Source: a virus (Duplodnaviria > Heunggongvirae > Uroviricota > Caudoviricetes). Taken from it: DNA of 64,000 nucleotides. The DNA is taken from IMG/VR virus record IMGVR_UViG_3300044712_001463. One strand, written 5' to 3'. The notes below the pieces were generated by a model. The model did not search any database, was not told the origin of the DNA, and saw nothing but the letters and a program-made list of their open reading frames with translations. Shown here piece by piece: positions 3-28,059 of this stretch. Each line of letters starts with the position of its first letter. Within the stretch, counting starts at the first letter, position 1. The translations under genes were made by a program, and so were the position numbers.

Positions 3-950
3 TCTTATATAAGAGGAACGATTGAAGGAGTCAAATTAGTAAAGGATGCATTCAGATTTTATACAAACTATTATAGTAATGTTGAAAATGGAAGAGGTCG
101 ATTTTTTGTTAATAGATTCATAGGTGGGTATGCTGAAAATTCAAATGGCAGTAAGAAAAAAATAGAATCAGAAGTCAGTCAAAGAGATTCTGGAGAAATA
201 ACGGCTGGAAAATCTTTGGATTGGGATAAAGAAGATCTAAACCAATGCCTCGTTCAAAACAATTTCGAGAATCTTTGCTTTTCAAAGCAAATCGTAGAAT
301 CTTTTGATTTTATCAAAAGGTGGTATAACTCAAAAGAATGGTACAAAGAAAGGGGCATTCCCTGGAAGATTGGACTTCTTCTTCATGGCAAGCCTGGAAC
401 TGGCAAGTCTTCCTATGTAAGAAGCCTTGGGCAAGAGATAGATGTTCCAGTATTTGTTTTTGATATTGCAACAATGTCCAACTCTGAATTTTCAGAGTTT
501 TGGAGAGAAGCCCAATGTTTTTCTCCTTGTATCTGTTTGATTGAAGACTTTGATAGAGTCTTCGATAAGGATAAGAACACAGTAACAGCAGATCTTATGA
601 AGCAGAAGTTAACCCTAGATTGTATTCTAAATGAAATCTCTGGTGTTGAAAACGGAGATGGAATAGTTACAATCATTACGGCTAACAATGCTGATAGAAT
701 AGATGAATCATTGGGTCAAATAGGAACCGATGGCAAGGTTTCTAGACCAGGTCGTATTGATATGATTCTTGAGTTTGATATACTTGAGGAAGGTTGTAGG
801 AAAACCATTGCCGAAAGAATGCTCAAGGATAGCCCTGAACATATAGATAGGATTGTCAAAGAGGGCGATGGTGACACTGGTGCGCAGTTTGTCAATCGGT
901 GTTCTGTTTTTGCCCTTAATGATTATTGGAAGCACAAGAAACAAAAGTAA
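3..950 (+). CDS. AAA-family ATPase, 5' partial (frame open from window start; listed TTG start at 216 is an artefact)
   Basis: No stop in frame from nt 3; Walker A GKPGTGKSS, Walker B CLIEDFD, RPGRID second-region motif. Confidence 0.75.
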   Translation, partial: SYIRGTIEGVKLVKDAFRFYTNYYSNVENGRGRFFVNRFIGGYAENSNGSKKKIESEVSQRDSGEITAGKSLDWDKEDLNQCLVQNNFENLCFSKQIVESFDFIKRWYNSKEWYKERGIPWKIGLLLHGKPGTGKSSYVRSLGQEIDVPVFVFDIATMSNSEFSEFWREAQCFSPCICLIEDFDRVFDKDKNTVTADLMKQKLTLDCILNEISGVENGDGIVTIITANNADRIDESLGQIGTDGKVSRPGRIDMILEFDILEEGCRKTIAERMLKDSPEHIDRIVKEGDGDTGAQFVNRCSVFALNDYWKHKKQK

Positions 951-953
951 TAC

Positions 954-981
954 TTGACAAGTTTCGCAGAGTGGATATAAT
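954..981 (+). promoter_or_regulatory. consensus sigma70-type promoter TTGACA-16-TATAAT(A)
   Basis: acTTGACAagt...ggaTATAATAgag. Confidence 0.7.
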
Positions 982-1008
982 AGAGTTATATCCGCTCTGG
1001 AGATTACA

Positions 1009-2031
1009 ATGCAAGTGTGTGTAGCCATGAGCGGCGGCGTAGATTCTTCTACGACCGCCGCTTTGCTTAAGAGTCAAGGGCATGAAGTCTTAGGTCTTAC
1101 CATGAAGTTATTTCATGATAAGGACCAAAAGGTTTCTTGTGATAAGAAACTTTGTTGTGGTGATAAGGACCGGGGAGATGCCGTTTCTGTCGCTAGGCGC
1201 ATGGACTTCTCGCATTTCTCGGTCAATTATGAGAAAGAGTTCAAACAATTCGTCATTGATTATTTTATCGAGTCTTACAAGGTTGGAAGGACTCCAAACC
1301 CTTGTGTTCTTTGCAATGATAGGTTGAAGTTTGATTTTTTGCTCAAAAAGGCATTGGAATTGGGCAATGACAAACTTGCTACGGGTCATTATGCAAGGGT
1401 TGTTGAAAAGGATGGTAAGTTTCATCTTTATAAGGCAAAGCATCTTCCCAAGGATCAGTCTTATTTCCTTCATGGTGTAACCCAGGAGCAATTGTCAAAG
1501 ATTCTCTTTCCACTTGGCGAGTTTACCAAGGATGAAGTCAGAAAGATGGCTGAAGAATTTAATCTAGTCAACGCAAACAAGCCAGAGTCAATGGATATTT
1601 GCTTTGTTAGGGATGGAAACTACGCTAACTTGATTGGTTCTGTTGGCGACGGTTTGATTGTAGACAAGAGTGGCAAGGTTCTTGGAAAGCATAATGGTTT
1701 TTATCATTTCACCATTGGTCAGCGCAAGGGACTTGGTTTGAATGCTTTTGTTATTCAAATCATTCCAGACAAGAATATTGTAGTTGTTGGAGAAGAGTCT
1801 GACCTATATAAGAGTGAATGTTCTCTAAAAAGCATCAATTGGATTTCGGGAGAGACTCCTTCTAGTCCAGTTGAGTGTGAAGTTAAGATTAGAAGTGGAG
1901 CAGATGTTGTTCCCGCTATTGTAGATGGAATGACTGTTCGGTTCAAGAATCCAATCAAGTCAATAACACCTGGGCAGTTTGCCGTGTTCTATAATGGTGA
2001 CGAGTGTCTAGGTGGAGGGGAAATACAATGA
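1009..2031 (+). CDS. mnmA: tRNA 2-thiouridylase MnmA (s2U34 synthesis)
   Basis: PP-loop SGGVDSS near N-term; CVLCN, GHYAR and QSYFL motifs characteristic of MnmA/TrmU. Confidence 0.85.
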   Translation: MQVCVAMSGGVDSSTTAALLKSQGHEVLGLTMKLFHDKDQKVSCDKKLCCGDKDRGDAVSVARRMDFSHFSVNYEKEFKQFVIDYFIESYKVGRTPNPCVLCNDRLKFDFLLKKALELGNDKLATGHYARVVEKDGKFHLYKAKHLPKDQSYFLHGVTQEQLSKILFPLGEFTKDEVRKMAEEFNLVNANKPESMDICFVRDGNYANLIGSVGDGLIVDKSGKVLGKHNGFYHFTIGQRKGLGLNAFVIQIIPDKNIVVVGEESDLYKSECSLKSINWISGETPSSPVECEVKIRSGADVVPAIVDGMTVRFKNPIKSITPGQFAVFYNGDECLGGGEIQ

Positions 2032-2399
2032 GTCTAGAGCAATTCCTTAATGGTAAGTATGGAAAGGTTTTGGTTGAGGAACCCCATCCTCAATCAAGAG
2101 CATCTTTAGTTATGCTTAAAAAGCATCTTGCTATGCAGTTTGATCCTAAAGATGAAAAACTCCAGACTGTTAAATGGCTAGTCTTTCGAGATATAGTCTT
2201 AAAAGAGGTTCTTGCCAAGGAAGGGTCTCTTACTTGTCATTATTGCAAGCAAGAGAACCTTCTTATGGAATCTGTTGACTTAGACTTTCTTGCAACCCTT
2301 GACCATGTTGTTCCTGTGTCAAAGGGCGGAAAGGTGTATGATAGGGCGAACCTAGTTGTCGCTTGTCATAATTGCAACAATAACAAAGGAAACAAATAG
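2004..2399 (+). CDS. HNH endonuclease
   Basis: C-terminal HVVPVSKGG...ANLVVACHNCNNNKGN HNH motif; overlaps mnmA 3' end. Confidence 0.7.
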   Translation: MSRWRGNTMSLEQFLNGKYGKVLVEEPHPQSRASLVMLKKHLAMQFDPKDEKLQTVKWLVFRDIVLKEVLAKEGSLTCHYCKQENLLMESVDLDFLATLDHVVPVSKGGKVYDRANLVVACHNCNNNKGNK

Positions 2400-2402
2400 T
2401 AC

Positions 2403-2430
2403 TTGACAAGTTCTCGGACTTAGGTATAAT
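2403..2430 (+). promoter_or_regulatory. consensus promoter
   Basis: acTTGACAagt-16-TATAATgtag. Confidence 0.7.
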
Positions 2431-2503
2431 GTAGTCATGAGCCAGAGTCAACTCAACCGAAAGGAGACCAAAATGCTCGCCTGATTATTAGAACGGAGGA
2501 AAT

Positions 2504-3382
2504 ATGAGTCCTAGGAAGAAACCATCTAATAAACCACCACTATCTGGAGAATCAAAAATGGAAAAGCTCATTGGTTTCGGTATTGCACTGGCAATCGCTC
2601 TTATGCTTGCTTTCAGCACTTTCTTCACCGTTGATCCTGGTGCTGTGGGAGTCACCTTCAACCGCCTCACTGGTAAGACCGAAGTGTGTGAGCAGGGTGT
2701 TCACGGCAAGATTCCCCTTATCACGGCAGTTTGGGAGTATGATGTTCGGACTCAGAAGGACGAGCTTGAGGCTCAGAGTTCTTCCAAGGACTTGCAGAGC
2801 GTCAAGATTTCCCTCGCGGTCAACTACCACCTTCTGTATGACAAGGTGAACGAAATCCACACCAAGGTCGGTCCCGATTACGCTAACAGGGTTATTCATC
2901 CTGCCGTTTTCGAGTCCGTCAAGGCTGCTTCCGCGCTCTTCCCCGTTGAGCAGATTATCGTTCAGCGTGAGACTCTTAAGGGTCTTATCGAGAAGGCGTT
3001 GGGTGAGCGACTCACTGCTTATCACGTTGTTCTTGAGAGCGTCAACCTTGTGAATATCGAGTTCGACCCCGAGTTCTCCAAGGCTGTCGAGAGCAAGCAG
3101 ATTGAGGAGCAGAAGATTAAGACTGCCCAGTATCAGCGCCTCCAGGCAGAGGAATACAAGAAGAAGACCATTCTTGAGGCTGAGGCTGAATCGCAGAGCC
3201 AGAGGCTTCTCGCCTTGGCTACCACCAAGGACGTTATCGCCCTCAAGATGATTGAGAAGTGGGATGGTCAGATGCCGCAGATTATGACTGGTGGCGGCTC
3301 GAACATGCTGATGAACATCGGCAACCTTCCTACGAGGGCTCCGAAGCCAAAGTCGGAGTCTAAGGAAGCCGACAAGGAGTAA
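2504..3382 (+). CDS. SPFH/band-7 (prohibitin-like) protein
   Basis: N-terminal TM helix, SPFH core, coiled-coil QIEEQKIKTAQYQRLQAEE; good RBS. Confidence 0.7.
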   Translation: MSPRKKPSNKPPLSGESKMEKLIGFGIALAIALMLAFSTFFTVDPGAVGVTFNRLTGKTEVCEQGVHGKIPLITAVWEYDVRTQKDELEAQSSSKDLQSVKISLAVNYHLLYDKVNEIHTKVGPDYANRVIHPAVFESVKAASALFPVEQIIVQRETLKGLIEKALGERLTAYHVVLESVNLVNIEFDPEFSKAVESKQIEEQKIKTAQYQRLQAEEYKKKTILEAEAESQSQRLLALATTKDVIALKMIEKWDGQMPQIMTGGGSNMLMNIGNLPTRAPKPKSESKEADKE

Positions 3383-3788: not shown

Positions 3789-3809
3789 AAACCGCATCGT
3801 GGAACCTAA

Positions 3810-3843
3810 AAAGAGAGGATAAATATCCTCTCTTTTTTTATTT
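3810..3843 (+). terminator. rho-independent terminator
   Basis: aagagaggat-aaat-atcctctcttttttttt. Confidence 0.7.
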
Positions 3844-5178: not shown

Positions 5179-5455
5179 TATTTATAAATCAAAAAATAGC
5201 AATGAGTATATTAGAATAATAGGCTGTAATCCTATTGGCACAACTATTTTATCGAAAAAAACAGCCAAGAAAAACATGATAGAAAATGATGCGGATAGAT
5301 TTCTTCCTCCAAAGATATTGGCTTGTAAAGAGAATGGATCTTTAACATTGATTGGTTTTTCAAAAATGATTGAAGATTATGTTTTCTGCAATGAAAAGTT
5401 TGAAAAAGATTTTTGTTATCCTTCTATTTTTAAAAATGATAAAACTCCTCAATAA
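5165..5455 (+). CDS. hypothetical protein
   Basis: 96 aa ORF coupled to upstream. Confidence 0.4.
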   Translation: MKNGDIYKSKNSNEYIRIIGCNPIGTTILSKKTAKKNMIENDADRFLPPKILACKENGSLTLIGFSKMIEDYVFCNEKFEKDFCYPSIFKNDKTPQ

Positions 5456-5462
5456 AGACATA

Positions 5463-6029
5463 GTGATTACCGAGTTGCAGCATCAGAAATGCAGAGAGTT
5501 TGCAGAACAATCTGCCGCGACTCATTTTCAGCACTATGAAAAGAGGGGTCAGTCAGACCATAATAGGATTGTCGAGCAAATCCTTGTAGGCAAACTCGGA
5601 GAAGTTGCAGTATATAAGTTTCTGAGTCAATACAAGGATTGCTCGAAGCCTGATTTCAATATTTATCCAAGTGGTAAAACATTTGATTCAGATATAAAGT
5701 GGAGACACTATAGAGTTCATGTGAAGACTCAAGACAAAGAGTCCGCTGAACTATTTGGTTTATCTTGGACCTTTCAAAAGTCAAATGCTACTGGAAATGA
5801 CTCGCGTGGGCATAATGACCACGGAGTTTTTAAGAACTATGACAAGGATGATCTCATATTCTTTTGCAATATAAAAAACGATAGGCTTGTTAGAATTTGT
5901 GCATCAGTTGATGCAAAGACCCTCCATGAAAAACACCTGTTTGCCCTCCCAGTCAAACAATCTCTTCAAGAATCCAAACGCTGCGTCTATTATAATATGC
6001 TTGAAGAGTCCCTAAATGAAAAGCAATGA
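5463..6029 (+). CDS. putative PD-(D/E)xK (restriction-endonuclease-fold) nuclease; start uncertain (GTG 5463; alternatives TTG 5370 / ATG 5379)
   Basis: GKLGEVAV...SKPDFNIY...DSDIKW = E / PD / (D)xK spacing like Hjc-type nucleases; 3' end overlaps dam start. Confidence 0.45.
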   Translation: MITELQHQKCREFAEQSAATHFQHYEKRGQSDHNRIVEQILVGKLGEVAVYKFLSQYKDCSKPDFNIYPSGKTFDSDIKWRHYRVHVKTQDKESAELFGLSWTFQKSNATGNDSRGHNDHGVFKNYDKDDLIFFCNIKNDRLVRICASVDAKTLHEKHLFALPVKQSLQESKRCVYYNMLEESLNEKQ

Positions 6030-6825
6030 CCTCGGACATATTTTCCGCTATCCTGGCGGAAAAAAGAAACTCTTCCCTAAAATACAGCCTTTTCTATTTC
6101 CTTTAATAGAGAAGAATAAATCATTTGCCGAGCCATTTGTAGGTGGCGGTTCTGTTATGATTGAAGTTGCTAAGGCTTTCAATGATATCCCTATTTTCAT
6201 TAATGATAAAAACGAAGGAGTGTCTGCGTTTTGGGAAATGATTAATTCACCAGAAGAAGATGTTAACGCATTATTCGAATTAATAAAGAGGCGTCCGACT
6301 ATTGATATATTTAATCAGCTCAGAATAAATAGCCATAAAACGAAAATACAAAAGGCTTATAACCTATTATTCATGAACAGATGTTGTTTCAGTGGTATTG
6401 AAACTGCTGGTCCTATTGGCGGTATGGAGCAATCTAGTAAATGGAAAATTGATTGCAGATATAATGCCGATAAAATAATTGCGAGCATTAATTATCTAAG
6501 AGATTTATTAAAGGGAAGATTAATTGTCTCCAATGATGATGTAATTGATTTTATTAAAAGAAATAAACCGGCATTTTATTTAGATCCTCCCTATTATGAA
6601 AAGGGGGATTCTCTTTATCCAGTTAAAATGGACCATGATGAGCATTTGAAGTTAGCGGATTTACTTAAATCAAAAGAAGACTGGGTATTATCATATGATG
6701 AACATCCTGAAATAAGAAAGATTTATGACTTTGCAACAATAAAAGAAATTAATGCTCGATATTCAATTGACGGCAAAAAAGATAATTGGAAAAATACACA
6801 TGAATTAATTATTTATCGGGGATAA
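6016..6825 (+). CDS. dam: DNA adenine methyltransferase, Dam/D12 class
   Basis: YPGGKKKL, EPFVGGGS (SAM site), DPPY catalytic motif. Confidence 0.85.
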   Translation: MKSNDLGHIFRYPGGKKKLFPKIQPFLFPLIEKNKSFAEPFVGGGSVMIEVAKAFNDIPIFINDKNEGVSAFWEMINSPEEDVNALFELIKRRPTIDIFNQLRINSHKTKIQKAYNLLFMNRCCFSGIETAGPIGGMEQSSKWKIDCRYNADKIIASINYLRDLLKGRLIVSNDDVIDFIKRNKPAFYLDPPYYEKGDSLYPVKMDHDEHLKLADLLKSKEDWVLSYDEHPEIRKIYDFATIKEINARYSIDGKKDNWKNTHELIIYRG

Positions 6826-6827
6826 AT

Positions 6828-7403
6828 ATGAAAAAGATAATCAATGTAGGCTGTGATTTAGATGGTTGTGTATTTGATTTTTCTGATAATTTCAGGAAAA
6901 GCATGCTGAAGTATTATAGTACCGTTGCATTAAGTAGGGACCAGAAGAAATGCAGAGAATTATTAATGGCATTTATTGATGAACACACAAAAGAATGCTT
7001 TGAACTTCCTATTTATTCTGATTGTGATAAAGTATTATCCAAATTAAATAAAATGGGCAAGAAAATAACCTTTATTACGGCTAGGGGAACCCATAACAAG
7101 GGAAAGGTATTAAAAGAAATAAAACAAATTACAAAAAATAGTCTTAATAAAAAAATGAAATTCCCATATAAATTAAAATATAGCGATGAAAAATTCTTGT
7201 TTGCCAAAAATAAAAAGATTGATATAATGATTGAGGATGATATAGACAATGCAATTGCAATGAGTGAGTTTTGCCCAGTTATATTTTTTCCGAGACCGTG
7301 GAATTATGGAGAGAAAATAATAAATAAGAATATAATTCCAGTTACTAATTGGAGAGAGGTTTTATTTCTTTTAGAGAATTGGGAATTAATATATTATGAA
7401 TAG
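6828..7403 (+). CDS. HAD-family 5'(3')-deoxyribonucleotidase-like phosphatase
   Basis: N-terminal DLDGCVFDF (DxDG motif I), downstream ITFITARG and MIEDD motifs. Confidence 0.6.
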   Translation: MKKIINVGCDLDGCVFDFSDNFRKSMLKYYSTVALSRDQKKCRELLMAFIDEHTKECFELPIYSDCDKVLSKLNKMGKKITFITARGTHNKGKVLKEIKQITKNSLNKKMKFPYKLKYSDEKFLFAKNKKIDIMIEDDIDNAIAMSEFCPVIFFPRPWNYGEKIINKNIIPVTNWREVLFLLENWELIYYE

Positions 7404-7964: not shown

Positions 7965-7998
7965 AGAGGGGATTCTTCGGAATCCCCTTATTTTTTTT
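7965..7998 (+). terminator. rho-independent terminator
   Basis: gaggggattc-ttcg-gaatccccttatttttttt. Confidence 0.75.
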
Positions 7999-8087: not shown

Positions 8088-8618
8088 ATGAATAAATCAT
8101 ACGAAGAAGAAGAAGTTGCAAGAAATCCAGAAACGCAAGCTTATAAACTCATCGAACTAAGCAGAAGCCTCAAGTCTCATGTTCGTGGGATTATAGCAAA
8201 AAACCCAAGCACCCCAAAGGATGTTCTTGGAAGACTTTCTAAGGACTCTGACTGGACCATTAGGGATGCTGTTGCTTGTAATGTTGAATGTCCGAGCAAG
8301 ATAATACAAGATTTGATTGAAGACGAAAATCTTAGAGTAAGACTTTCAGCTCTTAAGAATCCAAATTGCACAGCGAACATGTTATCAGAGTATGTGAATA
8401 GTGAAAATGTAAGAATAAGGTGTTCGGTCGCTTGCAACAAAAATCTTCTTCCAACTTCCTTGTTAGAACTTAGCAAGGATTCTAACTGGGAAGTCAGATT
8501 GTCGCTTGTTCACAATAAAGGACTTACAAGAGAAGCAATAGAAAATCTTACACAAGATGAATGTGAGTCTGTAAGAGAAGAAGCAAAAATAAAATTATTG
8601 GAGTTTGATAACAAATGA
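8088..8618 (+). CDS. HEAT/LRV-type alpha-helical repeat protein
   Basis: Repeated ~30 aa units (IRDAVACN, VRLSALKNPN, VRIRCSVACN, VRLSLVHN). Confidence 0.5.
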   Translation: MNKSYEEEEVARNPETQAYKLIELSRSLKSHVRGIIAKNPSTPKDVLGRLSKDSDWTIRDAVACNVECPSKIIQDLIEDENLRVRLSALKNPNCTANMLSEYVNSENVRIRCSVACNKNLLPTSLLELSKDSNWEVRLSLVHNKGLTREAIENLTQDECESVREEAKIKLLEFDNK

Positions 8619-11565: not shown

Positions 11566-12270
11566 ATGTATTTTGAAATAAAAGACCAAATAAAGATAAT
11601 CGCAGCATTGTCCCTAGCAGATAAAAAGACTGCTAGGGACAATGGCATTTCTTATCGTGAAGCAAATTTATTTGAATCAATTAATAAAATAACCAATACG
11701 TCTAAGAGTGGTGACTATTATTTTAATCCAAAGACTAGAGCTTTTATGATACTCATGCCGCCTAGCAAGGATGCCGAAGCAGAAGATAAAAGCGGTAAGC
11801 CTAAGTGGAAATACATAGAAAGATTGCTAGGAAGAGGTGGAAGAGGTATTTCTGATAACGAGGCGCCGGCAGAGTTTGTTGCTGCTTTAAAAAAACCAGA
11901 ATACTACAAGGGAAATATTATAGAAGCTGGAACCCAAGAAATTAAAGATAAAATTATTCCAGGAAAAGAATATAAATTTAGATTTAAAGAGCCAGATGAG
12001 GAACAGGAAGAAGAAGATTCTATTATAAGAGTAATATTTGAAAGAGTTGGAATGTCAAGAGGCTGGTATAATGCTGGCTCAATATTTTCTCATATAAATG
12101 AACCTGAGAGACTCTACAGATATTTTGGACCAGAATACTATTATAAGTTTAAAACACCAGAAGATGGTATAAAATATAATGCGGTTCCTTTTTCACGGGG
12201 AAATTCATTTGATGGTGGAGTAGACTTAAATGATTACATCTTAAGAGATTATATTGAGGCAGATAAATGA
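11566..12270 (+). CDS. leader family protein with 24-aa N-terminal extension (…GISYREANLFESINK)
   Basis: Leader motif internal at aa ~25; start chosen after upstream stop. Confidence 0.5.
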   Translation: MYFEIKDQIKIIAALSLADKKTARDNGISYREANLFESINKITNTSKSGDYYFNPKTRAFMILMPPSKDAEAEDKSGKPKWKYIERLLGRGGRGISDNEAPAEFVAALKKPEYYKGNIIEAGTQEIKDKIIPGKEYKFRFKEPDEEQEEEDSIIRVIFERVGMSRGWYNAGSIFSHINEPERLYRYFGPEYYYKFKTPEDGIKYNAVPFSRGNSFDGGVDLNDYILRDYIEADK

Positions 12271-12725
12271 TTTCTTATAGAGAAAGAGTTATCAATTTAG
12301 TCAACGATCTCTTGAAAGAAAGAGGAATTAATTATTTGCGCCTTAATGACATTAAATTTGAAGAACCGCCAGCGGTTAGGCTCTCAGAATTTCTTTGGAA
12401 CAAACTTAAATGGGTAGGTAATTCAAAAACAGTCCCAGCTGAAGGCATTCTTTTTATTAAGGGCAACCATAAACTAGAGCCAGGTTGGGAAATTCATGAA
12501 AAAACACATCTTGAGAATCCCGTAGAAGAAGTCACAGACAAATATCCAATAAATGAACAAGAGATAAGACCATTTACAGAACAAATAAAGTTTTATTTAA
12601 CCAAGGGGCTTTCTAAATGGCATATTATTGATTTAATAAAGCAGGATTATGGAAATGATTGGAAAAAAGAATGGGAATCAGTTTTCTCGGATTTAATTGA
12701 TTCAATTAGAGAGGGCTCAAAATGA
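12267..12725 (+). CDS. MISYRE-variant family protein (lacks NLFESLNKQ)
   Basis: N-term MISYRERVINL; ATGA coupling. Confidence 0.6.
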   Translation: MISYRERVINLVNDLLKERGINYLRLNDIKFEEPPAVRLSEFLWNKLKWVGNSKTVPAEGILFIKGNHKLEPGWEIHEKTHLENPVEEVTDKYPINEQEIRPFTEQIKFYLTKGLSKWHIIDLIKQDYGNDWKKEWESVFSDLIDSIREGSK

Positions 12726-13174
12726 TTTCCTATAGAGCAAATCTATTTGAGTCTTTGAATAAGCAAATAGATAATAGCATAAAAATCGGAGACATTTTAT
12801 TTAATAAAGAAAAATGCTCTGTTTTATTTTATCAGGCGCCAGAAAATAGCTACTTTTATTCCTTTGCTATAATCTCTCCAAAAACAAGAAGATTTGTTCC
12901 AGAAGAGACCAATGCAAATAATTTGCTAAATGACAAATCGTATAAAAAAATAGGAAATATATTCCAAATTAAAAACGTTGACATCAATAAATGCGCAGCA
13001 GTTCAGTTCAAATCCCTTATTAATCTTGCTAGTCTTTTAACAAATATAAGTGAGGACACGGAAATAACTCCAGAAATTATAATTAATTATCTTAGACACC
13101 ACTATAAATCGGCTAATTTTATATCAAAAGACCATTTTAAAAAATTAAATGAAATATATGGAGAGAAGAAATGA
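12722..13174 (+). CDS. leader family protein
   Basis: MISYRANLFESLNKQIDNS; ATGA coupling. Confidence 0.7.
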   Translation: MISYRANLFESLNKQIDNSIKIGDILFNKEKCSVLFYQAPENSYFYSFAIISPKTRRFVPEETNANNLLNDKSYKKIGNIFQIKNVDINKCAAVQFKSLINLASLLTNISEDTEITPEIIINYLRHHYKSANFISKDHFKKLNEIYGEKK

Positions 13175-13641
13175 TTTCCCACAGAGCAAATCTATTTGAG
13201 TCTTTGAATAAACAGATTAAAGTTAATATAGGAGAGGACTGGATTGAAATAATAAATCCCTCATCCTTTATTAGTCTTGGAATACATGAGTCACTTGCTG
13301 TAAAATCGGTCCCATTTCTAGTGGGATATAAAGACTTGCGTGAAGTAAATAGCGTTGTCACTCTGATGTCGAATCAAGGGATACATGGAAATTGGAGTAA
13401 TCATCAAATAGATATAGAAGGGTTTTTGAAAATACCATTTTCTTCATATAAAAAAATAAACCCACCAATAAAATATGCTTTTAAAATCAATGAAGAGGTT
13501 ATTTACAAAACCAAGAAACAAAAAACAAAAATCATAAGCCATGTAACTGGAGCCCATGGATGGGGAAATCCAGAATATCTTTTGGATATACAAAATATTG
13601 GCGGTCCCCAGGACGAAGAAAGAATCGAGAGAGTAAAATGA
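13171..13641 (+). CDS. leader family protein, subtype A (WIEII...PIKYAFKINEEV)
   Basis: MISHRANLFESLNKQ; ATGA coupling. Confidence 0.7.
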   Translation: MISHRANLFESLNKQIKVNIGEDWIEIINPSSFISLGIHESLAVKSVPFLVGYKDLREVNSVVTLMSNQGIHGNWSNHQIDIEGFLKIPFSSYKKINPPIKYAFKINEEVIYKTKKQKTKIISHVTGAHGWGNPEYLLDIQNIGGPQDEERIERVK

Positions 13642-17222: not shown

Positions 17223-17581
17223 TCTCCTACAGAGCAAATCTATTTGAGTCTCTTCAGAAACAAGTGCCTGTAAAATTTACTACAGGGGATATTATTTATA
17301 TTCCAAACAAAGAAATAGGTGTTTATTATAATGAAAATAGGATGTTTGTTCTTGATAGTGTCTTTGACAATAGAAGACATTCAATTCAAAACTTATTACC
17401 AGGCACTATTGATTCTAGAATAAATTGTCCTAAAGTAGCTTCAAATATAAATCAAAACTATGGCTTTCACTTTACTAACCTTGTTGTGAAATATAATCTA
17501 CATGGAAAAAACGTAGACACAAATATACAAAGATTAAAAGAAATGGCCAAAGACTTTGAAAATGAAAATTTCGAGGCATAA
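17219..17581 (+). CDS. leader family protein (MISYRANLFESLQKQ)
   Basis: ATGA coupling. Confidence 0.7.
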   Translation: MISYRANLFESLQKQVPVKFTTGDIIYIPNKEIGVYYNENRMFVLDSVFDNRRHSIQNLLPGTIDSRINCPKVASNINQNYGFHFTNLVVKYNLHGKNVDTNIQRLKEMAKDFENENFEA

Positions 17582-17583
17582 GA

Positions 17584-21817: not shown

Positions 21818-22479
21818 TTTCCTACAGACATTCAAACCTATTTGAATCCATTAAGAAGCAAATGCCCGCGAATCCAAAAATCGGGGATATTTATTATTGT
21901 CCTACAAGAAAATCCTTTGCTATTTTAAGATCGATAAGGGATATGTCCTGGGCCATCGTATATCGGGTAAGGGATAATAGATATACTACATGGAATAATA
22001 AGTCTTTAAACATCCCGGGTAGTATGTCCAAAATAGGAAATATGTTCGAATTAAAAAATTTGGAAATCCCTGAGCCGCCATATATAATATCATCTTTATC
22101 TTTATCATCTATGGTAAGAAAAATACGACAAGGCCAAGACCCTACAAAAGAATGGGTTCTTGATGAATTTAAAAACCTAACAAGCGCAGAAATCGCAAAA
22201 GAGGTCTTAGGCCAAGAGCATTATGAAAGAGAAGATAAAAAGACAGTAGCCAACCTATTTGAATCTCTTAATAAACATATAAATCATAAATATGTTATTA
22301 TAGGTCGGTATAATCCTAAGTCTCCTGATATATATTACTTTGGAAAAGAAAGAGGAACAAAGACATATACCTACGACATACAACTAGCAAAGGTATTCAA
22401 TAGTAGGGCAGAGGCCGAGAAAATTTTGAACAGTATATCGGATAAAAGATATTACAGAATCATAGAGGTCAATTCATGA
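21814..22479 (+). CDS. two-module leader family protein; internal KKTVANLFESLNKHI at ~22249
   Basis: MISYRHSNLFESIKKQ. Confidence 0.7.
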   Translation: MISYRHSNLFESIKKQMPANPKIGDIYYCPTRKSFAILRSIRDMSWAIVYRVRDNRYTTWNNKSLNIPGSMSKIGNMFELKNLEIPEPPYIISSLSLSSMVRKIRQGQDPTKEWVLDEFKNLTSAEIAKEVLGQEHYEREDKKTVANLFESLNKHINHKYVIIGRYNPKSPDIYYFGKERGTKTYTYDIQLAKVFNSRAEAEKILNSISDKRYYRIIEVNS

Positions 22480-23387
22480 TTTCTTACAGAGCAAACCTAT
22501 TTGAGTCCCTTCAGAAGCAAATGCCTGTCAATCTAGGAGATATAGTTGAAACTACTGCTACTGGTGGATATAGAATAGTTGGAATAGTTGCCACTAGAGA
22601 AGGGCAAGATATAAGTGACAAAAACAAAGGTGAAAAGGGATATGTATATATTTATGGATTTAATACAAAACTCAAGGAAGGTAATGGATTATTTCTAGTG
22701 CCAATAAGTAGTTTGAAAAAAATACCAGGTGAGCAATTGCCAACAAGACCCAAATACTCCCCAGGCCAAACGATTGGGAACAACATAAAAATCATTGCGG
22801 TTAATTATGCAAAAGATGATTATAGTTATCTTTGTGATAGTAGTGAAGATGGTCGGCGTTGGGGTCGGTGTTGGTATGATGAAAAAGAAATCGATCAAAT
22901 GCAATTATCCAAGAAGGCCAACCTATTTGAATCTATTAAGAAACAAATACCTAATGTTATCTTTGGAGAGACTTGGATTGAGATAATCGATCCAAAGCCA
23001 TTTAATTCGGCTAACATGCATAATTCATTTAATAATGGAGATGTATATTTAGTATCTTATCATGATAGAGAAAATATAGAAAGAGGATTGCTTTATTTAA
23101 TGGGAATAACTAGCAGGACATTCTCATGGGGTGAACACGAACTTACAAAAGAGCAATTTAATAAAATTCCTAAATCAGCTTATAAAGTAATACCATCGCC
23201 ATTAGAATATAAATATAAGATAGGCCAAGAGTTTAATGATTATGAACTAACTTTTAAAATAATCGCCCTCGTAACTGGATACAATGGAATAGAGCATCAA
23301 GATTATCTATGCGAGCAAGTAGGCTCTAGGGAAACTAGAATTTACAAACAAGAGGTTATTGATGGGCTTATGGGAGAGAACCAATGA
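22476..23387 (+). CDS. two-module leader family protein (D + A); internal KKANLFESIKKQI at ~22917
   Basis: MISYRANLFESLQKQ; FGETWIEIID. Confidence 0.7.
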   Translation: MISYRANLFESLQKQMPVNLGDIVETTATGGYRIVGIVATREGQDISDKNKGEKGYVYIYGFNTKLKEGNGLFLVPISSLKKIPGEQLPTRPKYSPGQTIGNNIKIIAVNYAKDDYSYLCDSSEDGRRWGRCWYDEKEIDQMQLSKKANLFESIKKQIPNVIFGETWIEIIDPKPFNSANMHNSFNNGDVYLVSYHDRENIERGLLYLMGITSRTFSWGEHELTKEQFNKIPKSAYKVIPSPLEYKYKIGQEFNDYELTFKIIALVTGYNGIEHQDYLCEQVGSRETRIYKQEVIDGLMGENQ

Positions 23388-23848
23388 TATCCTACAGGGC
23401 AAATCTATTCGAATCACTTAATAAGCAAAATCCAGTAATCTTTGGACAGACCTGGATTAAAATAATCGACTCTAAGCCTTTCCTTGAAATTCCAAATGTA
23501 AAGGATATTAGTGATGGAGATATTTTTCTTGTTTCTTATAAAAGTAAAGTTGATATGAGGGATGGTATTATATCACTTATGGGACTGAAGGTCGAAAACC
23601 TTATATGGGATAATCATAGTTTAAGAATAGATAGATTTAAATCTATATCTAGATCCGCATATAGAATCGTGCCATGCCCATTGAATTATAAATACAAAAT
23701 AGGGCAGACGGTTTATACTGGTCGCCCTGACAAGGTAATATCCCTTGCAACTGGCATCGGAGAACCAGAAACAAAATGTTATTTATTAGAACATAGTGCC
23801 CCTTATCCTATCCAAGAAAGTCAATTATCGGAAAGGGCTAGGAAATGA
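23384..23848 (+). CDS. leader family protein, subtype A
   Basis: MISYRANLFESLNKQNPVIFGQTWIKII. Confidence 0.7.
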   Translation: MISYRANLFESLNKQNPVIFGQTWIKIIDSKPFLEIPNVKDISDGDIFLVSYKSKVDMRDGIISLMGLKVENLIWDNHSLRIDRFKSISRSAYRIVPCPLNYKYKIGQTVYTGRPDKVISLATGIGEPETKCYLLEHSAPYPIQESQLSERARK

Positions 23849-24336
23849 TCTCTTACCGAGCAAATCTATTTGAGTCTCTTAATAAGCAAATAAATACCCT
23901 TAGGCCAGGGGACATACTTGAGCCTAAGTCTAATATTATGGAGGCTATTATTTCCAAAAAAGGGATAAGATGGGTTTTAGCTCCTAATGATATGTACAAC
24001 ATATCGCATATAAAAGGGAATTATTCAGTATTCGTAATAAACGGCAGTAGACAGACTTGGATTGAATTAACGCCAGAAGAAATACATAAATACTATAACA
24101 AAATAGGTGAGGCCAACCTATATGGATTTAAGGCAGGGGATAAGATTCCAATTTCTTGTGTTGAGAGAATGACAAATGTTCGGACACCTACAAATGAACT
24201 ATTTTTATATGAAATAATGGTTGTTGGAAAAGAAAGCCCACTATCAATTGGATTATTAGGAGCGGAAAATAGATTAGACCAAGCTTTTGCAACCTATCTT
24301 CCCCTAGAAGATCTAGCAAAGAGGTGTGGTAAATGA
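23845..24336 (+). CDS. leader family protein, subtype B
   Basis: MISYRANLFESLNKQ; YGFKAGDKI. Confidence 0.7.
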   Translation: MISYRANLFESLNKQINTLRPGDILEPKSNIMEAIISKKGIRWVLAPNDMYNISHIKGNYSVFVINGSRQTWIELTPEEIHKYYNKIGEANLYGFKAGDKIPISCVERMTNVRTPTNELFLYEIMVVGKESPLSIGLLGAENRLDQAFATYLPLEDLAKRCGK

Positions 24337-24794
24337 TCTCCTATAGAAATTCAAACCTATTTGAATCTATTAAGAAACAAATACTTCCTACTCCTGGGAT
24401 TATTTATCAGCCTATTGAAGATAAGCCTTGGCCTAACCCCTATTTAAATGTTAGTTTTTCAAAACAATGTTTTTATTTGTTCTCGCATATTAGGGATGGT
24501 AAGATGGTTCTTATTAGGAGAATGGCAGGAGATTGGGTTTTCGAAGTAAGTCATGATGAGATAAATAGTATTTTAAAGCCCGTAGGCCAAGCCGATTTAA
24601 AGGGTTTCAAAGTCGGGGATAAGATTCGCCGTAAAGGATTAAGTGAAATATTTATAATAGTAGGATTCGGCTTGACTGGCGATAATACCCCGAAAGCCTA
24701 TTGTATTCAAGAAGGAGCAGATATTGAACCTATCTGGGACTTCCATTTTACTAGTGCAATTTCATTAATGGTAATGGAAAAGGTATCCCAATGA
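24333..24794 (+). CDS. leader family protein, subtype B (PWPNP)
   Basis: MISYRNSNLFESIKKQ; KGFKVGDKI. Confidence 0.7.
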   Translation: MISYRNSNLFESIKKQILPTPGIIYQPIEDKPWPNPYLNVSFSKQCFYLFSHIRDGKMVLIRRMAGDWVFEVSHDEINSILKPVGQADLKGFKVGDKIRRKGLSEIFIIVGFGLTGDNTPKAYCIQEGADIEPIWDFHFTSAISLMVMEKVSQ

Positions 24795-25267
24795 TCTCCT
24801 ACCGGACCTCAAACCTATTCGATTCTATTAAGAAACAAATACCCTTTAGGTCAGGGGACATACTCAAACCTATTTCACCTACCAAAATGGATTGGAACGG
24901 ATGGGAGATAAATCCCGATAGGCCATACAATGTTTCGCATATAACGGAGAATGGATTAGTAGTCGTTCAAAATGGATTCTTATCTAGTGATTTCGCCAAA
25001 CTAACACTAGAAGATGCAAAATTGCTATTTGAAAAAATAGGTGAGTCCAACCTCTATGGTTTCAAGGTAGGGGATATGGTCTGTCCTGAATATGTTCGCG
25101 GGGTAAGGCAAACTGAAAAGACTTGTTATTACCTAAATAAAATACTTGTCAACGCAGCAGGTAAAGCATTTGGATTCTTTACTAAAGATAATAATAATGA
25201 TGCTAAGAAATTTGATTCATATTGTGAATTATCTAAATTGCAAAAACAAGGCGGTTCTGTCCAGTAA
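24791..25267 (+). CDS. leader family protein, subtype B
   Basis: MISYRTSNLFDSIKKQ; YGFKVGDMV. Confidence 0.7.
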   Translation: MISYRTSNLFDSIKKQIPFRSGDILKPISPTKMDWNGWEINPDRPYNVSHITENGLVVVQNGFLSSDFAKLTLEDAKLLFEKIGESNLYGFKVGDMVCPEYVRGVRQTEKTCYYLNKILVNAAGKAFGFFTKDNNNDAKKFDSYCELSKLQKQGGSVQ

Positions 25268-25584
25268 TCGGGTTTTACCCCGTAGGCCAAAGCATTAATT
25301 TTGTCCGGCGATTGGAAACATTGTAAAACTTTATAAGAAACTAGTAGTGTGTGGTAAAGTAATAAAAGCCCATAGGCCAAAGGATAAATTGAGTAATTGT
25401 TGCAAATGGTCTATTGTGGTTTATTGTGGGTAGGAATAGGATAGATTGGATAAGAGGGGAGGTGTAGTGTCATTCACCTCTCTTAATAAGATCTACAAAT
25501 CACCACCCTACCCTGGTTTGTTAAGTCATATTAAGTTTTGTCTATCGTTAATTAATAAATCTTAATAAGAAGGATTTATACAAC

Positions 25585-26118
25585 ATGATAAGTTATAGGA
25601 ATGCAAATATATTTGAATCATTAAAGAAGCAGATGTATCCTCTTGTTGGAGGCATATATATTTGTTTAGAGGATAAGCCCTGGCCTAACCCACGGAACAG
25701 GCATTTGGCTATTATAGAAGGTGAGAGATATATCTTTTCACATGTAAGAGATGGCAAGATGGTTCTAGTGCAAAAGATGCAGGGTGGGAATGTTTTCGAG
25801 GTAGGTCCAGGGGATATAAAAAAATACTTTAGTTTTCTTGACCAGGGTGATTTAAGAGGTTTCAAAGTAGGAGACATGGTTGTAAGGGGAGACGTTGAGG
25901 TTCTTGAAGTTCCAGGTAGAATGCATGAGGCCGGCAGGTCAATTCCTAGATATAAAATAATGGCATTCGGATTAGGAATAAGACTAGCACCCAAGGCATA
26001 TTGTTTAAGAGAGGGCTCTGGAACTGAAGAGGGAATTGGACTAGAATATTTGAAATGGAGTTTCGCCCATTGCGACTCAGAACTTCTTTTAGAACAGATA
26101 AAGAAGGCTGACAAATGA
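25585..26118 (+). CDS. leader family protein, subtype B (PWPNP); first gene after internal non-coding gap
   Basis: MISYRNANIFESLKKQ. Confidence 0.7.
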   Translation: MISYRNANIFESLKKQMYPLVGGIYICLEDKPWPNPRNRHLAIIEGERYIFSHVRDGKMVLVQKMQGGNVFEVGPGDIKKYFSFLDQGDLRGFKVGDMVVRGDVEVLEVPGRMHEAGRSIPRYKIMAFGLGIRLAPKAYCLREGSGTEEGIGLEYLKWSFAHCDSELLLEQIKKADK

Positions 26119-26591
26119 TCTCTTACAGAGCAAATCTATTCGAATCTATTAATAAGATAAATGCGCCTAGGCCCGGGGTTGTTTATGAAGGTATTGTGAA
26201 TAAGGATTGGCCTAACCCGAGGCACAATGATATTGGGATTACAGAAGGGGAGCAATATATTTTCTCTCATATGAGAAATGGCAAGATGGTTCTTGTTAGA
26301 AAAATGGCTGGTTCTTGGATTTTTGAAGTAAGTCCTAACGAGATAAATAAATACTTTAAACCCATAGGCCAAGCAAACTTACAGGGGTATGAAATAGGAG
26401 ATAAGATATATAGTGAAATGTATGGCAATGGAACCATAACAGGGTTCGGCCTAGCGGATATTGAAAGAATAAAAGCATATATAATTAGAGAAGGGATTGT
26501 TGAGGATGAGGATGACAAATGGGATTTTATATCTGGTAACGGTCACGATGATCCTTTATTGAGCAGAGTAGAAAAAGGATGGAAGAAATGA
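26115..26591 (+). CDS. leader family protein, subtype B
   Basis: MISYRANLFESINKI; KPIGQANLQGYEIGDKI. Confidence 0.7.
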   Translation: MISYRANLFESINKINAPRPGVVYEGIVNKDWPNPRHNDIGITEGEQYIFSHMRNGKMVLVRKMAGSWIFEVSPNEINKYFKPIGQANLQGYEIGDKIYSEMYGNGTITGFGLADIERIKAYIIREGIVEDEDDKWDFISGNGHDDPLLSRVEKGWKK

Positions 26592-27073
26592 TTTCTTATC
26601 GTAAGTCCAACTTATTTGAATCCTTAAACAAAATGAACATCTGTAGTCCAGGTGATATTTTTGAAGGCATTGCAAATATGCCCTGGCCTCATAGCGAAAA
26701 GCAGGTATGGATATGGAAGGGAACTCGTTATATATTTTCACATATGTATAATGGTAAGATGGTTCTCATACAGAAGAACGAAGGTAGCAGGATTTTCTTT
26801 GTATCACCTAGCGAATTAAATAAATATTTTAAGCGCATAGGCCATGCTGATTTTCAAGGACTTAAAGTAGGGGATTATGTTTATACTGAGAGCAGGGAGA
26901 CTGGGACTTTCAGGCATTATATAATAACTGCCCTGGGCCTATACGATGATGACAGTCCGATGCCCTGGTGTAGGTGGATACATGATTCAGTTCCATTTAA
27001 TCCAGAGAGGCCAACAAACAGAGCAGAAAGATTTTACTTAAAAGAGATTATTAAGAATCCACATCAGGGGTAG
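26588..27073 (+). CDS. leader family protein, subtype B
   Basis: Start at ATG 26588; MISYRKSNLFESLNKM. Confidence 0.7.
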   Translation: MISYRKSNLFESLNKMNICSPGDIFEGIANMPWPHSEKQVWIWKGTRYIFSHMYNGKMVLIQKNEGSRIFFVSPSELNKYFKRIGHADFQGLKVGDYVYTESRETGTFRHYIITALGLYDDDSPMPWCRWIHDSVPFNPERPTNRAERFYLKEIIKNPHQG

Positions 27074-27078
27074 GCCAA

Positions 27079-27618
27079 ATGATTTCTTATCGTGCAAATT
27101 TATTTGAATCCTTGAACAAGGTTGTCAAAAAGATTACTGAGTCTGGGCAATACTGCGTAGGCCCAGACGGAATTGTTTATTTTGTTAATGCTGGCGAAAA
27201 CATAGGGGACTTTTATTTAATGTCCGAAAAGGGTAATGTTACTAAGACCACGAACCTTGATGAGATTAATAAGAATTATCAATATACGACACCTAGGCCA
27301 GGGTGGGTAACTAAGAAAGTCAAAGACGGAACTCGATATGCTCATTATCCTCATAGGGCTGGGGATAAATATGAGGCAAGAGGTGCTGACGGAAGCTATA
27401 GGCTTATATGGATTTCATGCGGTTGCTATATAACTTCATTTAAGAATTTTTCTAAGATGATGTTAAGTTATAGAGCTGCAACTATGCCAAATCCGGAAGC
27501 AAGGAAGCCAGAAAGAAAACCTAGTTCGATAACGCACGAAGATGTTCTCATCAAAGATATATTGGATGATAATAATCAATGGGTTAATAATGATACAAGA
27601 GGCCCAGGGGGATACTGA
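27079..27618 (+). CDS. leader family protein
   Basis: MISYRANLFESLNKV; internal MMLSYRAA echo. Confidence 0.65.
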   Translation: MISYRANLFESLNKVVKKITESGQYCVGPDGIVYFVNAGENIGDFYLMSEKGNVTKTTNLDEINKNYQYTTPRPGWVTKKVKDGTRYAHYPHRAGDKYEARGADGSYRLIWISCGCYITSFKNFSKMMLSYRAATMPNPEARKPERKPSSITHEDVLIKDILDDNNQWVNNDTRGPGGY

Positions 27619-27621
27619 TAA

Positions 27622-28059
27622 ATGATTTCTTATCGTGCAAATTTATTTGAATCCTTAAAGAAGCAAATCAACCCTGGGCCTCCTAGGGTTGGTGATTTCT
27701 TTTGGGATAGCGAGAACCAGGTATTTATTCTCAAGACATGTGACCAGAACAATTCAAAATATGTTTTCGGACAGGCTTATAAAGATAGGGAAGATGGTGA
27801 GTTCCTATATAAATTCAGAGATAATGCTACTATCACTGGCAGACGTTTGGGCAATGTTCTAGATATGAATCCTAAAGCGGCTGAGGCTTTTAAAAGGAAT
27901 GAGATAAATTGCATAGAAACATTCAAGTTCATACAAAACCTTTGTGAATGGCTTGACAAGGCAAATATAACCGAGCGTGGTATCATAGAATATGTAAGAG
28001 CCTATAAGTTCGGCTGGATTAAAATAACTGCTGGTGGTGAAGCAGGAGTAGAACTATGA
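27622..28059 (+). CDS. leader family protein, subtype C (GDFFWDSEN)
   Basis: MISYRANLFESLKKQ. Confidence 0.7.
   Translation: MISYRANLFESLKKQINPGPPRVGDFFWDSENQVFILKTCDQNNSKYVFGQAYKDREDGEFLYKFRDNATITGRRLGNVLDMNPKAAEAFKRNEINCIETFKFIQNLCEWLDKANITERGIIEYVRAYKFGWIKITAGGEAGVEL

What the first reader, a model, noticed from the sequence alone, without database searches (positions are those of the whole stretch)
5463..7403. A PD-(D/E)xK-like nuclease translationally coupled to Dam, followed by a 5'-deoxyribonucleotidase
The gene just upstream of dam overlaps the dam start. It shows an E / PD / (D)xK arrangement (GEVAV...SKPDFNIY...DSDIKW) typical of restriction-endonuclease-fold nucleases. A HAD-family nucleotidase follows. 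Three readings are possible. It could be a phage-borne R-M-like pair, a methylation-protected host-DNA degradation module, or a nuclease plus nucleotide salvage. The salvage reading has the nuclease break host DNA down to dNMPs and the nucleotidase release nucleosides.
Basis: inference. Interest (0 to 1): 0.6.

Follow-up and report, generated by a model that had tools for sequence, protein, structure and literature searches.

The report
Phage GGCC-cutting nuclease with methylase partner
The gene in front of the supposed "dam" gene belongs to a large, undescribed family of phage nucleases whose presence goes with complete loss of the four-letter word GGCC from the phage's own DNA, so it is most likely a restriction enzyme that phages turn against host or rival DNA, here paired with a protective GGCC methylase rather than Dam.

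Summary
The three overlapping or abutting + strand genes are real. Gene 1 (5436/5463-6029) has no Pfam, PHROG, NCBIfam or PADLOC match. A confident AlphaFold model matches almost only restriction-endonuclease-fold (PD-(D/E)xK) proteins. Its family has at least 1,353 clusters in metagenomes, with E47, D77 and K88 conserved in 153-154 of 154 members.

Gene 2 is a D12-class methyltransferase but not Dam. It fails the Dam model cut-off, and its nearest solved relative is M.CbeI, an N4-cytosine methylase of GGCC.

The decisive result is site loss. In 52 non-redundant viral loci with the nuclease alone, GGCC occurs 0 times against 470 expected. With nuclease plus methylase (37 loci) it is 47 against 467. 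Loci with neither gene have normal counts. Cultured phage RM378 has 0 against 158 genome-wide. Of 41 loci holding a close relative of the methylase, 37 have the nuclease gene directly upstream.

Best reading: a GGCC-specific restriction-modification pair carried by a phage. In many other phages the nuclease stands alone and self-protection comes from site loss.

The HAD gene is not part of the conserved module, and the salvage reading is unsupported. Cleavage and methylation specificities are inferred, not measured.

The parts
5436..6029 (+). Nuclease gene 'ORF-A', 197 aa from ATG 5436 or 188 aa from GTG 5463. PD-(D/E)xK fold. Inferred GGCC-specific endonuclease. Residue numbers in this report count from the GTG 5463 start.
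6016..6029 (+). 14-nt overlap between the nuclease stop codon and the methyltransferase ATG. This layout permits translational coupling.
   Evidence: Read directly from the sequence. Overlaps of 8-13 nt also occur in L134, L141, L147 and L121. In other loci the gap reaches about 760 nt.
6016..6825 (+). D12-class (alpha-class) DNA methyltransferase with FVGGGS and DPPY motifs. Of the M.CbeI/DmtB type. Inferred to methylate GGCC at N4 of cytosine. Not Dam.
   Evidence: Pfam PF02086 4e-27. Below the TIGR00571 dam cut-off. Best solved relative M.CbeI 1.7e-22. Profile of its clade: M.CbeI 1e-36 over the full length, DpnM 5.7e-14, E. coli Dam about 1e-10 over the N-terminal half only. M.CbeI and DmtB are GGCC m4C enzymes (PMC3425538).
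6828..7403 (+). HAD-like phosphatase of unknown substrate. It sits in the same transcription unit but is not a conserved partner of the pair.
   Evidence: Weak family matches only. No solved relative. No relatives in GenBank phages or IMG/VR. Absent next to the pair elsewhere.
3808..3837 (+). Terminator-like hairpin at the upstream edge of the + strand gene block that holds the pair.
   Evidence: This is a consensus scan only.
7966..7989 (+). Terminator-like hairpin at the downstream edge of the same gene block.
   Evidence: This is a consensus scan only.
21951..27677 (.). GGCC island: 28 of the window's 33 GGCC sites. These are the sites that would need methylation if the nuclease cuts GGCC.
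   Evidence: Over 21.8-27.7 kb there are 29 sites against 6 expected from base composition. The other roughly 58 kb holds 4-5 sites against about 150 expected.

Best explanation
The first two genes form a phage-borne restriction-modification pair directed at GGCC. Gene 1 is a small PD-(D/E)xK endonuclease of a previously undescribed family. It is inferred to cut unmethylated GGCC in host DNA, and possibly in the DNA of competing phages. Gene 2 is a methyltransferase of the M.CbeI/DmtB type. It is inferred to convert GGCC to GGm4CC on the phage's own DNA. The 14-nt overlap allows the methylase to be translated together with the nuclease.

The phage has also lost nearly all of its GGCC sites. 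The methylase covers the remainder, which is mainly a 5.7-kb island holding 28 sites. In many other phages the same nuclease stands alone, and self-protection is complete loss of GGCC.

Shown here: the fold, residue conservation, gene linkage, and the GGCC statistics.
Inferred: cleavage specificity, methylation specificity, the target (host DNA), and translational coupling.

For: 2. Active site. E47, D77 and K88 are present in 153-154 of 154 representatives. E47, D77 and H86-x-K88 parallel the E50 / WD / QVK active site of NhoI.

3. GGCC statistics over 139 non-redundant loci:
- Nuclease only: 52 loci, 0 GGCC against 470 expected; all 52 have zero.
- Nuclease plus methylase: 37 loci, 47 against 467; 14 loci are non-zero.
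- Methylase only: 668 against 786.
- Neither gene: 1764 against 2016.
- CCGG and GCGC occur at expected levels.
- Of all 4-mers, GGCC is the only one absent; the next lowest observed/expected ratio is 0.61.

4. Matched negative control. L084 has a polA 49% identical to that of the nuclease-carrying clade and no nuclease gene. It holds 30 GGCC against 33 expected.

5. Whole genome. Cultured phage RM378 carries a solitary homologue (p099) and has 0 GGCC against 158 expected, with no D12 methylase.

6. Linkage. Of 41 viral loci with a methylase at least 39% identical to the window's, 37 have the nuclease gene directly upstream on the same strand. Of 16 loci with more distant methylases, only 2 do. 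All three long contigs picked through the methylase alone also had the nuclease gene upstream. In L035 the gene order is reversed. In L032 the nuclease gene lies between two DNA methylase genes.

7. Independent pointer to GGCC. The methylase clade's nearest solved relative is M.CbeI (1e-36), ahead of DpnM (5.7e-14) and E. coli Dam (about 1e-10). M.CbeI and its relative DmtB are GGCC N4-cytosine enzymes.
Against: - No biochemistry. The specificities of both enzymes are inferred.
- The window's methylase gives only an 83-bit match to M.CbeI, an E-value of 1.7e-22. Specificity can change at that distance.
- The loci are not phylogenetically independent. Most nuclease-only loci belong to a few clades.
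- There is only one close nuclease-negative relative (L084).
- GGCC loss could in principle be driven by host GGCC restriction systems. RM378 also lacks CTAG entirely, which shows that complete loss of a 4-mer occurs for other reasons too.
- Most loci are 5-14 kb samples, not whole genomes.
- The family is unusually well conserved for a restriction endonuclease.
- Even with the methylase present, GGCC is about 10-fold depleted. Protection by methylation therefore looks incomplete, or the methylase has another role.
Confidence: 0.75

Rival explanations
1. Host-driven avoidance. The phages lack GGCC because their hosts carry HaeIII-type restriction systems. The nuclease has a different job, for example a structure-specific nuclease in replication or recombination. 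Its correlation with GGCC loss comes from shared ancestry or shared hosts.
Against: - The correlation holds across many unrelated backbones: RM378, contigs of 179-450 kb, 40-kb polA phages, and the window.
- Zero GGCC is universal only where the methylase is missing, and is relaxed where it is present (Fisher p = 8e-7). That pattern is what a self-encoded GGCC nuclease predicts.
- This reading does not explain why the nuclease is welded to a GGCC-type methylase.
- The nuclease-negative relative L084 has normal GGCC.
Confidence: 0.12
2. Modification-dependent nuclease, like the BisI family or DpnI. It would cut methylated GGCC. The phage methylase would mark host DNA for destruction, and the phage would escape by having no sites.
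For: Three of the four best structural matches are modification-dependent enzymes: NhoI, Eco15I and DpnI.
Against: - This reading predicts the strictest site loss where the methylase is present. The opposite is seen: 14 of 37 methylase-linked loci and the window itself (33 sites) keep GGCC, while 52 of 52 nuclease-only loci have none.
- The pairing also occurs in contigs from genome bins with polysaccharide-synthesis genes, which may be cellular (L032, L035). There it would be self-destructive.
Confidence: 0.06
3. Free-standing homing endonuclease that has landed next to various DNA-metabolism genes, including this methylase gene.
Against: - Homing endonucleases recognise long sites and would not purge a 4-mer genome-wide.
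- Fixed gene order and tight linkage to one methylase clade.
- Highly conserved size and residues across at least 1,353 clusters.
Confidence: 0.03
4. Nuclease plus nucleotide salvage. The nuclease degrades host DNA to nucleotides and the HAD enzyme dephosphorylates dNMPs. The three genes would act as one module.
For: The three genes abut or overlap within one + strand block bracketed by terminator-like hairpins. There is a weak match to a deoxyribonucleotidase PHROG, 2.8e-3.
Against: - The HAD gene is never found beside the pair elsewhere.
- It has no detectable relatives in GenBank phages or IMG/VR.
- Its best family match has unknown function, and no Pfam match reaches its cut-off.
- A 4-bp cutter gives fragments, not mononucleotides.
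Confidence: 0.04

Closest known systems
CbeI / M.CbeI of Caldicellulosiruptor bescii, with the solitary methylase DmtB of Anabaena: GGCC-directed, alpha-class N4-cytosine methylation
   Same: The window's methyltransferase and its clade are nearest to M.CbeI among solved structures. They share the D12 annotation and the DPPY motif described for M.CbeI. The inferred target is the same, GGCC, with an adjacent nuclease gene.
   Different: CbeI is described as a HaeIII-like enzyme (title of the reference cited). The window's nuclease and 59 relatives match no Pfam family. The pair here is in phages. The nuclease is often solitary. The match to M.CbeI is distant (83 bits, E = 1.7e-22).
BisI-family enzymes NhoI and Eco15I, and PvuII: small dimeric PD-(D/E)xK restriction endonucleases
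   Different: No detectable sequence similarity. BisI enzymes need methylated cytosines in GCNGC. The GGCC pattern here argues for cutting of unmethylated sites.
Virus-encoded restriction-modification systems of chlorella viruses, such as CviAI with M.CviAI (from my own knowledge, not checked here)
   Same: A virus carries both a restriction endonuclease and its methylase, degrades host DNA early in infection, and protects its own genome by methylation.
   Different: Those are viruses of eukaryotic algae with unrelated enzymes and other target sites. Protection there is by methylation, not by genome-wide site loss with a solitary nuclease.
T4 endonucleases II and IV (DenA, DenB), which degrade host DNA (from my own knowledge)
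   Same: Phage nucleases that destroy host DNA while the phage's own DNA is immune. A DenB-annotated protein is a weak structural hit (Foldseek E = 0.013).
   Different: T4 immunity comes from hydroxymethylcytosine, not from site loss or site methylation. There is no sequence relationship to the window's nuclease.
PD-lambda-5 defence system, described as a compact prophage 'RM+Abi' system
   Same: The window's methyltransferase gives its best PADLOC match to PD-Lambda-5_B, 1.5e-56. The authors regard that system as R-M-like.
   Different: The nuclease matches no PADLOC model, including the partner protein of PD-lambda-5.

Membership tests
PD-(D/E)xK (restriction-endonuclease-like) nuclease superfamily | Core alpha/beta fold shared with solved members | tested here: met
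PD-(D/E)xK (restriction-endonuclease-like) nuclease superfamily | Conserved acidic residues and a lysine placed as helix-E, strand-D and (D/E)xK | tested here: inconclusive
E47, D77 and K88 are present in 153-154 of 154 members. The middle position is H86 (127 of 154) rather than D or E, comparable to Q in NhoI. Placement was judged from the order of secondary-structure elements only, without coordinates.
Type II restriction-modification system | Nuclease and methyltransferase genes linked in the genome | tested here: met
   37 of 41 loci with a close methylase relative have the nuclease gene upstream. 3 of 3 long-contig look-ups agree. Both gene orders occur.
Type II restriction-modification system | Sequence-specific cleavage of the unmodified site, blocked by the cognate methylation | not testable with these tools
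   Indirect evidence only. GGCC is absent from all 52 nuclease-only loci and tolerated only where the methylase is present.
Dam (GATC N6-adenine methyltransferase; TIGR00571 and PRK10904) | Score above the curated family cut-off | tested here: not met
   92.5 bits against a cut-off of 114.85, and 24.6 against 441. E. coli Dam aligns only over the N-terminal half, at about 1e-10. GATC is not absent from any related locus.
D12-class / alpha-class DNA methyltransferase (Pfam PF02086) | Pfam match above the gathering score; FxGxG and (D/N/S)PP(Y/F) motifs | tested here: met
   96 bits against a cut-off of 22. FVGGGS and DPPY are present in the translation.
M.CbeI/DmtB-type GGCC N4-cytosine methyltransferases | Closer to M.CbeI than to adenine methylases of the same class | tested here: met
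   Clade profile: M.CbeI 1e-36 over the full length, DpnM 5.7e-14, Dam about 1e-10, T4 Dam 1.5e-5.
M.CbeI/DmtB-type GGCC N4-cytosine methyltransferases | Produces m4C at GGCC | not testable with these tools
   Inferred from homology and from the GGCC statistics.
HaeIII-like restriction endonucleases (the family to which CbeI is assigned) | Sequence match to the family model | tested here: not met
   No Pfam family is matched at E of 1 or below by the window's protein, and none is shared by its 59 relatives.
HAD-superfamily 5'(3')-deoxyribonucleotidase | Match to a nucleotidase family model; HAD motifs I-IV | tested here: inconclusive
   Motifs visible by eye are DLDGCV, FITAR and IEDD. Pfam HAD_2 is below its cut-off (E = 0.037). 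The deoxyribonucleotidase PHROG gives 2.8e-3, against 7e-14 for a PHROG of unknown function. No solved relative was found.

The most novel reading that the evidence does not exclude
A very large group of uncultured phages (at least 1,353 protein clusters at 50% identity) practises 'restriction without modification'. Each carries a solitary GGCC-cutting endonuclease and has removed every GGCC from its own genome. The nuclease can then shred host and rival DNA at no risk to the phage. Larger genomes such as this one add an M.CbeI-type methylase and can then keep some sites. The 5.7-kb GGCC-rich island inside the array of paralogous genes may be a deliberately retained, methylation-dependent feature.
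Probability: 0.6. Interest if true: 0.85.

Novelty: new variant of a known kind. Interest (0 to 1): 0.78.

Why it matters
If the reading is correct, four things follow.

- It defines a new restriction-endonuclease family. The specificity was predicted purely from genome statistics and can be tested at once with RM378 p099, a gene from a cultured thermophilic phage.
- It shows that a gene routinely annotated "DNA adenine methylase (Dam)" in phage genomes is probably a GGCC cytosine-N4 methylase.
- It points to a common phage strategy of using a restriction enzyme offensively, with immunity by site loss rather than by modification.
- It gives a simple rule for reading oligonucleotide avoidance in viral metagenomes: a site can be missing because of the phage's own nuclease, not only because of host restriction.

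Tried and rejected
- **Dam/GATC reading: rejected.** The gene is below the Dam model cut-off, M.CbeI is the nearest solved relative, and GATC is not absent from related loci.
K79 is K in only 39 of 154 members.
- **Sequence searches of the nuclease found nothing useful:** Pfam, PHROGs, NCBIfam and PADLOC, a profile search against PDB sequences, and Pfam on 60 family members.
- **tblastn against 50,697 GenBank phages found only RM378**.
- **Recoding of stop codons** does not explain the shortage of long ORFs at 28-54 kb. The region does hold small real genes.
- **Aquificales genome hits (L012-L016)** are only a distant partial match, within a protein of about 320 aa, and are not informative.
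- **HAD gene:** no relatives in GenBank phages or IMG/VR.
- **Literature searches** for GGCC avoidance linked to a phage nuclease found no report. That is not proof that none exists.
- **Readings considered and ranked low:** homing endonuclease, resolvase and modification-dependent nuclease. Reasons are given under the rival explanations.
Full report
**What is in the sequence**

Between 5.1 and 7.9 kb the window carries a run of + strand genes that abut or overlap.
Its stop codon lies 14 nt inside the next gene, whose ATG is at 6016.
- That second gene ends at 6825.
- A third gene runs from 6828 to 7403.
- Terminator-like hairpins at 3808-3837 and 7966-7989 bracket the block. Promoter-like matches are no more frequent than chance.

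**The nuclease (ORF-A)**

The 188-aa protein matches nothing in Pfam, PHROGs, NCBIfam or PADLOC. A profile of its family matches no PDB sequence.

A word-indexed search found only five relatives, and GenBank phages hold a single one, p099 of Rhodothermus phage RM378. An exhaustive profile search, however, found 1,353 cluster representatives, 944 of them below 1e-10. Nearly all of the 150 listed are 170-230 aa long. None of 60 members scanned matches a shared Pfam family.

The motif assignment is only partly right. Across 154 representatives:
- E47, D77, K88, S101 and D119 are present in 153 or 154 of 154.
- D64, K72 and K172 are nearly invariant.

In NhoI and Eco15I the active site is a glutamate on the first helix, the aspartate of a degenerate 'PD' motif, and QVK or QIK in place of (D/E)xK. 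By the order of secondary-structure elements, the equivalents here are E47, D77 and H86-V-K88. This mapping is an inference, because I could not inspect coordinates.

**The methyltransferase is not Dam**

It is a D12-class enzyme by Pfam, but it scores below the curated cut-off for the Dam family, 92.5 against 114.85 bits. Its best solved relative is 7M6B (1.7e-22), far ahead of DpnM (8.8e-6). E. coli Dam and T4 Dam were not retrieved at all.

7M6B is M.CbeI of Caldicellulosiruptor bescii. M.CbeI was annotated as a D12 adenine methylase and has a DPPY motif. It was nevertheless shown to make N4-methylcytosine at GGCC and to protect against CbeI, which cuts GG/CC. Its relative DmtB of Anabaena also methylates GGCC.

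A profile of the window's methylase clade confirms the order:

| Solved structure | E-value | Coverage |
|---|---|---|
| M.CbeI | 1e-36 | full length |
| DpnM | 5.7e-14 | near full length |
| E. coli Dam | about 1e-10 | N-terminal half only |
| T4 Dam | 1.5e-5 | most of the protein |

**The GGCC signal**

- GATC is only about 2-fold depleted.
- GGCC is nearly absent: 33 sites in 64 kb, of which 28 lie in one 5.7-kb stretch. There is 1 site against about 100 expected at 29-54 kb.

I then counted the same words in every locus that carries a relative of the nuclease. GGCC was absent from all the phage loci, while other palindromes were close to expectation. An unbiased scan of all 4-mers shows that GGCC is the only word missing; the next lowest observed/expected ratio is 0.61. 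RM378, the one cultured phage with a homologue, has 0 GGCC against 158 expected over 129,908 bp and has no D12 methylase.

**Matched control**

I used the polA gene that lies next to the nuclease gene in a clade of roughly 40-kb phages to fetch 80 viral loci.
- 52 loci carry the nuclease. All 52 have zero GGCC (0 against 460 expected), with CCGG and GCGC at expected levels.
- 28 loci lack the nuclease. None of them has zero GGCC (1761 against 1934 expected).
- The closest nuclease-negative relative, L084, has 30 against 33 expected. It shows no trace of the gene even with all search filters switched off.

**Linkage to the methylase**

Among loci found through the nuclease, a homologous D12 methylase gene is adjacent in several separate lineages.
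- In the L035 group the gene order is reversed.
- In the L032 group the nuclease gene sits between two methylase genes, with 4-nt overlaps on both sides.

In the other direction, three long contigs chosen only because they encode close relatives of the methylase all carry the nuclease gene upstream. Among 57 viral loci found with the methylase, 37 of the 41 whose methylase is at least 39% identical to the window's have the nuclease directly upstream on the same strand. Only 2 of the 16 with more distant methylases do. Spacing between the two genes ranges from a 13-nt overlap to about 760 nt.

**Combined tally**

After removing redundant loci, 139 remain:

| Class | Loci | GGCC observed | GGCC expected | Loci with zero GGCC |
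|---|---|---|---|---|
| Nuclease only | 52 | 0 | 470 | 52 |
| Nuclease plus methylase | 37 | 47 | 467 | 23 |
| Methylase only | 18 | 668 | 786 | 1 |
| Neither | 32 | 1764 | 2016 | 1 |

- The single zero among 'neither' is L088, which has a divergent copy of the nuclease gene (E = 2.5e-10).
- The single zero among 'methylase only' is L161, where only about 1 site is expected.
- Fisher tests give p = 8e-7 for nuclease-only against nuclease-plus-methylase, and p = 4e-22 for nuclease present against absent.
- These p-values overstate the evidence, because the loci share ancestry. Both states do occur in at least eight sequence clusters each.

**Interpretation**

The simplest account is that the nuclease cuts unmethylated GGCC. 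A phage that carries it alone must have no GGCC at all. A phage that also carries the GGCC methylase can keep some sites. Two independent lines point to the same four bases: site loss tied to the nuclease, and homology of the linked methylase to the GGCC enzyme M.CbeI. The likely use is destruction of host DNA and perhaps of co-infecting phages; that step is inferred. The overlap of the two genes would tie methylase synthesis to nuclease synthesis, which is also inferred.

**Rivals**

- *Host-driven avoidance with an unrelated role for the nuclease.* This fits the gene's position in replication modules. It does not explain the link to a GGCC-type methylase, or why zero GGCC is universal only where the methylase is absent.
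- *A modification-dependent nuclease.* This is suggested by the top structural hits, but it predicts the opposite dependence on the methylase.
- *A homing endonuclease.* This would not purge a 4-mer from a whole genome.
- *The salvage idea.* It fails on conservation. The HAD gene has no detectable relatives, is never beside the pair, and has only weak, mixed family matches.

**Novelty**

Restriction-modification pairs and the PD-(D/E)xK fold are known kinds.
- The nuclease family is absent from the four protein-family libraries searched.
- Its frequent solitary state, with complete site loss as the apparent means of immunity, is something I could not find described in the searchable literature.
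- I could not check REBASE, and I could not obtain the CbeI sequence.
- All statements about specificity remain predictions until tested. RM378 p099 offers a direct route.

Noticed in passing
window 4468-28502, + strand: 33 genes begin with MISYR. In 31 of them the first 15 or so residues are close to MISYRANLFESLNKQ. They form a near-continuous tandem array of paralogues of about 150-300 aa (25-53% identical) from 12267 to 28502. The three members tested match no Pfam or PHROG family.
   Followed up: partly
window 21951-27677: A GGCC island. 28 of the window's 33 GGCC sites lie in the last ten or so genes of the paralogue array, in no fixed reading frame. Over 21.8-27.7 kb there are 29 sites against 6 expected from base composition, in a genome otherwise almost free of GGCC. 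Unexplained.
   Followed up: partly
window 28000-54000: A block with G+C near 50%, against about 33% elsewhere. It holds 7-8 tRNA genes (30.5-35.6 kb) and only short genes; no ORF exceeds 300 aa under any single stop-codon reassignment. Some genes are real: a PP-loop, TilS-like protein at 29843-30475, a metallophosphoesterase at 38186-38968, a radical SAM protein at 39123-39746 and a WGR-domain protein at 41158-41982. GGCC is missing here too (1 against about 100 expected), so the block belongs to the same genome.
   Followed up: partly
window 216-3382 and 8088-8618: An AAA ATPase (216-950), an MnmA-like tRNA 2-thiouridylase (1009-2031), an SPFH/Band 7 protein (2504-3382) and a HEAT/LRV-repeat protein (8088-8618) lie around the operon. 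Related contigs of 270-450 kb carry PARP/WGR, 2OG-Fe(II) oxygenase, SET and Thg1 genes near the same nuclease-methylase pair (L121-L123).
   Followed up: no
whole window: GTAC and AGCT are about 3-fold depleted and GATC about 2-fold depleted against a second-order Markov expectation. This suggests pressure from further restriction systems.
   Followed up: no
L118-L120 (Rhodothermus phage RM378, NC_004735.1, whole genome): Besides GGCC (0 against 158 expected), CTAG is also completely absent (0 against 115). GGAC/GTCC are depleted to about 0.3 of expectation, which hints at avoidance of GGWCC.
   Followed up: partly
family members P0117 and P0033: P0117 is a nuclease-family protein fused to a C-terminal LAGLIDADG homing-endonuclease domain. 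P0033 carries an extra N-terminal domain of about 95 aa with a cysteine- and histidine-rich motif.
   Followed up: no
L010 4127-6148; L122 2700-3011; L123 2375-3004: In some relatives one or two small genes are inserted beside the nuclease gene or between it and the methylase gene. In L010 a cysteine-rich 281-aa gene lies upstream of the nuclease gene and a 109-aa gene lies between the two. The pair therefore tolerates insertions while keeping its order and strand.
   Followed up: no
L032 3111-5379: A three-gene unit: an N6_N4-type methylase gene, the nuclease gene and the D12 methylase gene, with 4-nt overlaps at both junctions. It sits in a 105-kb contig among glycosyltransferase genes. The two-methylase layout recalls the DpnII system (from memory, not checked).
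   Followed up: no
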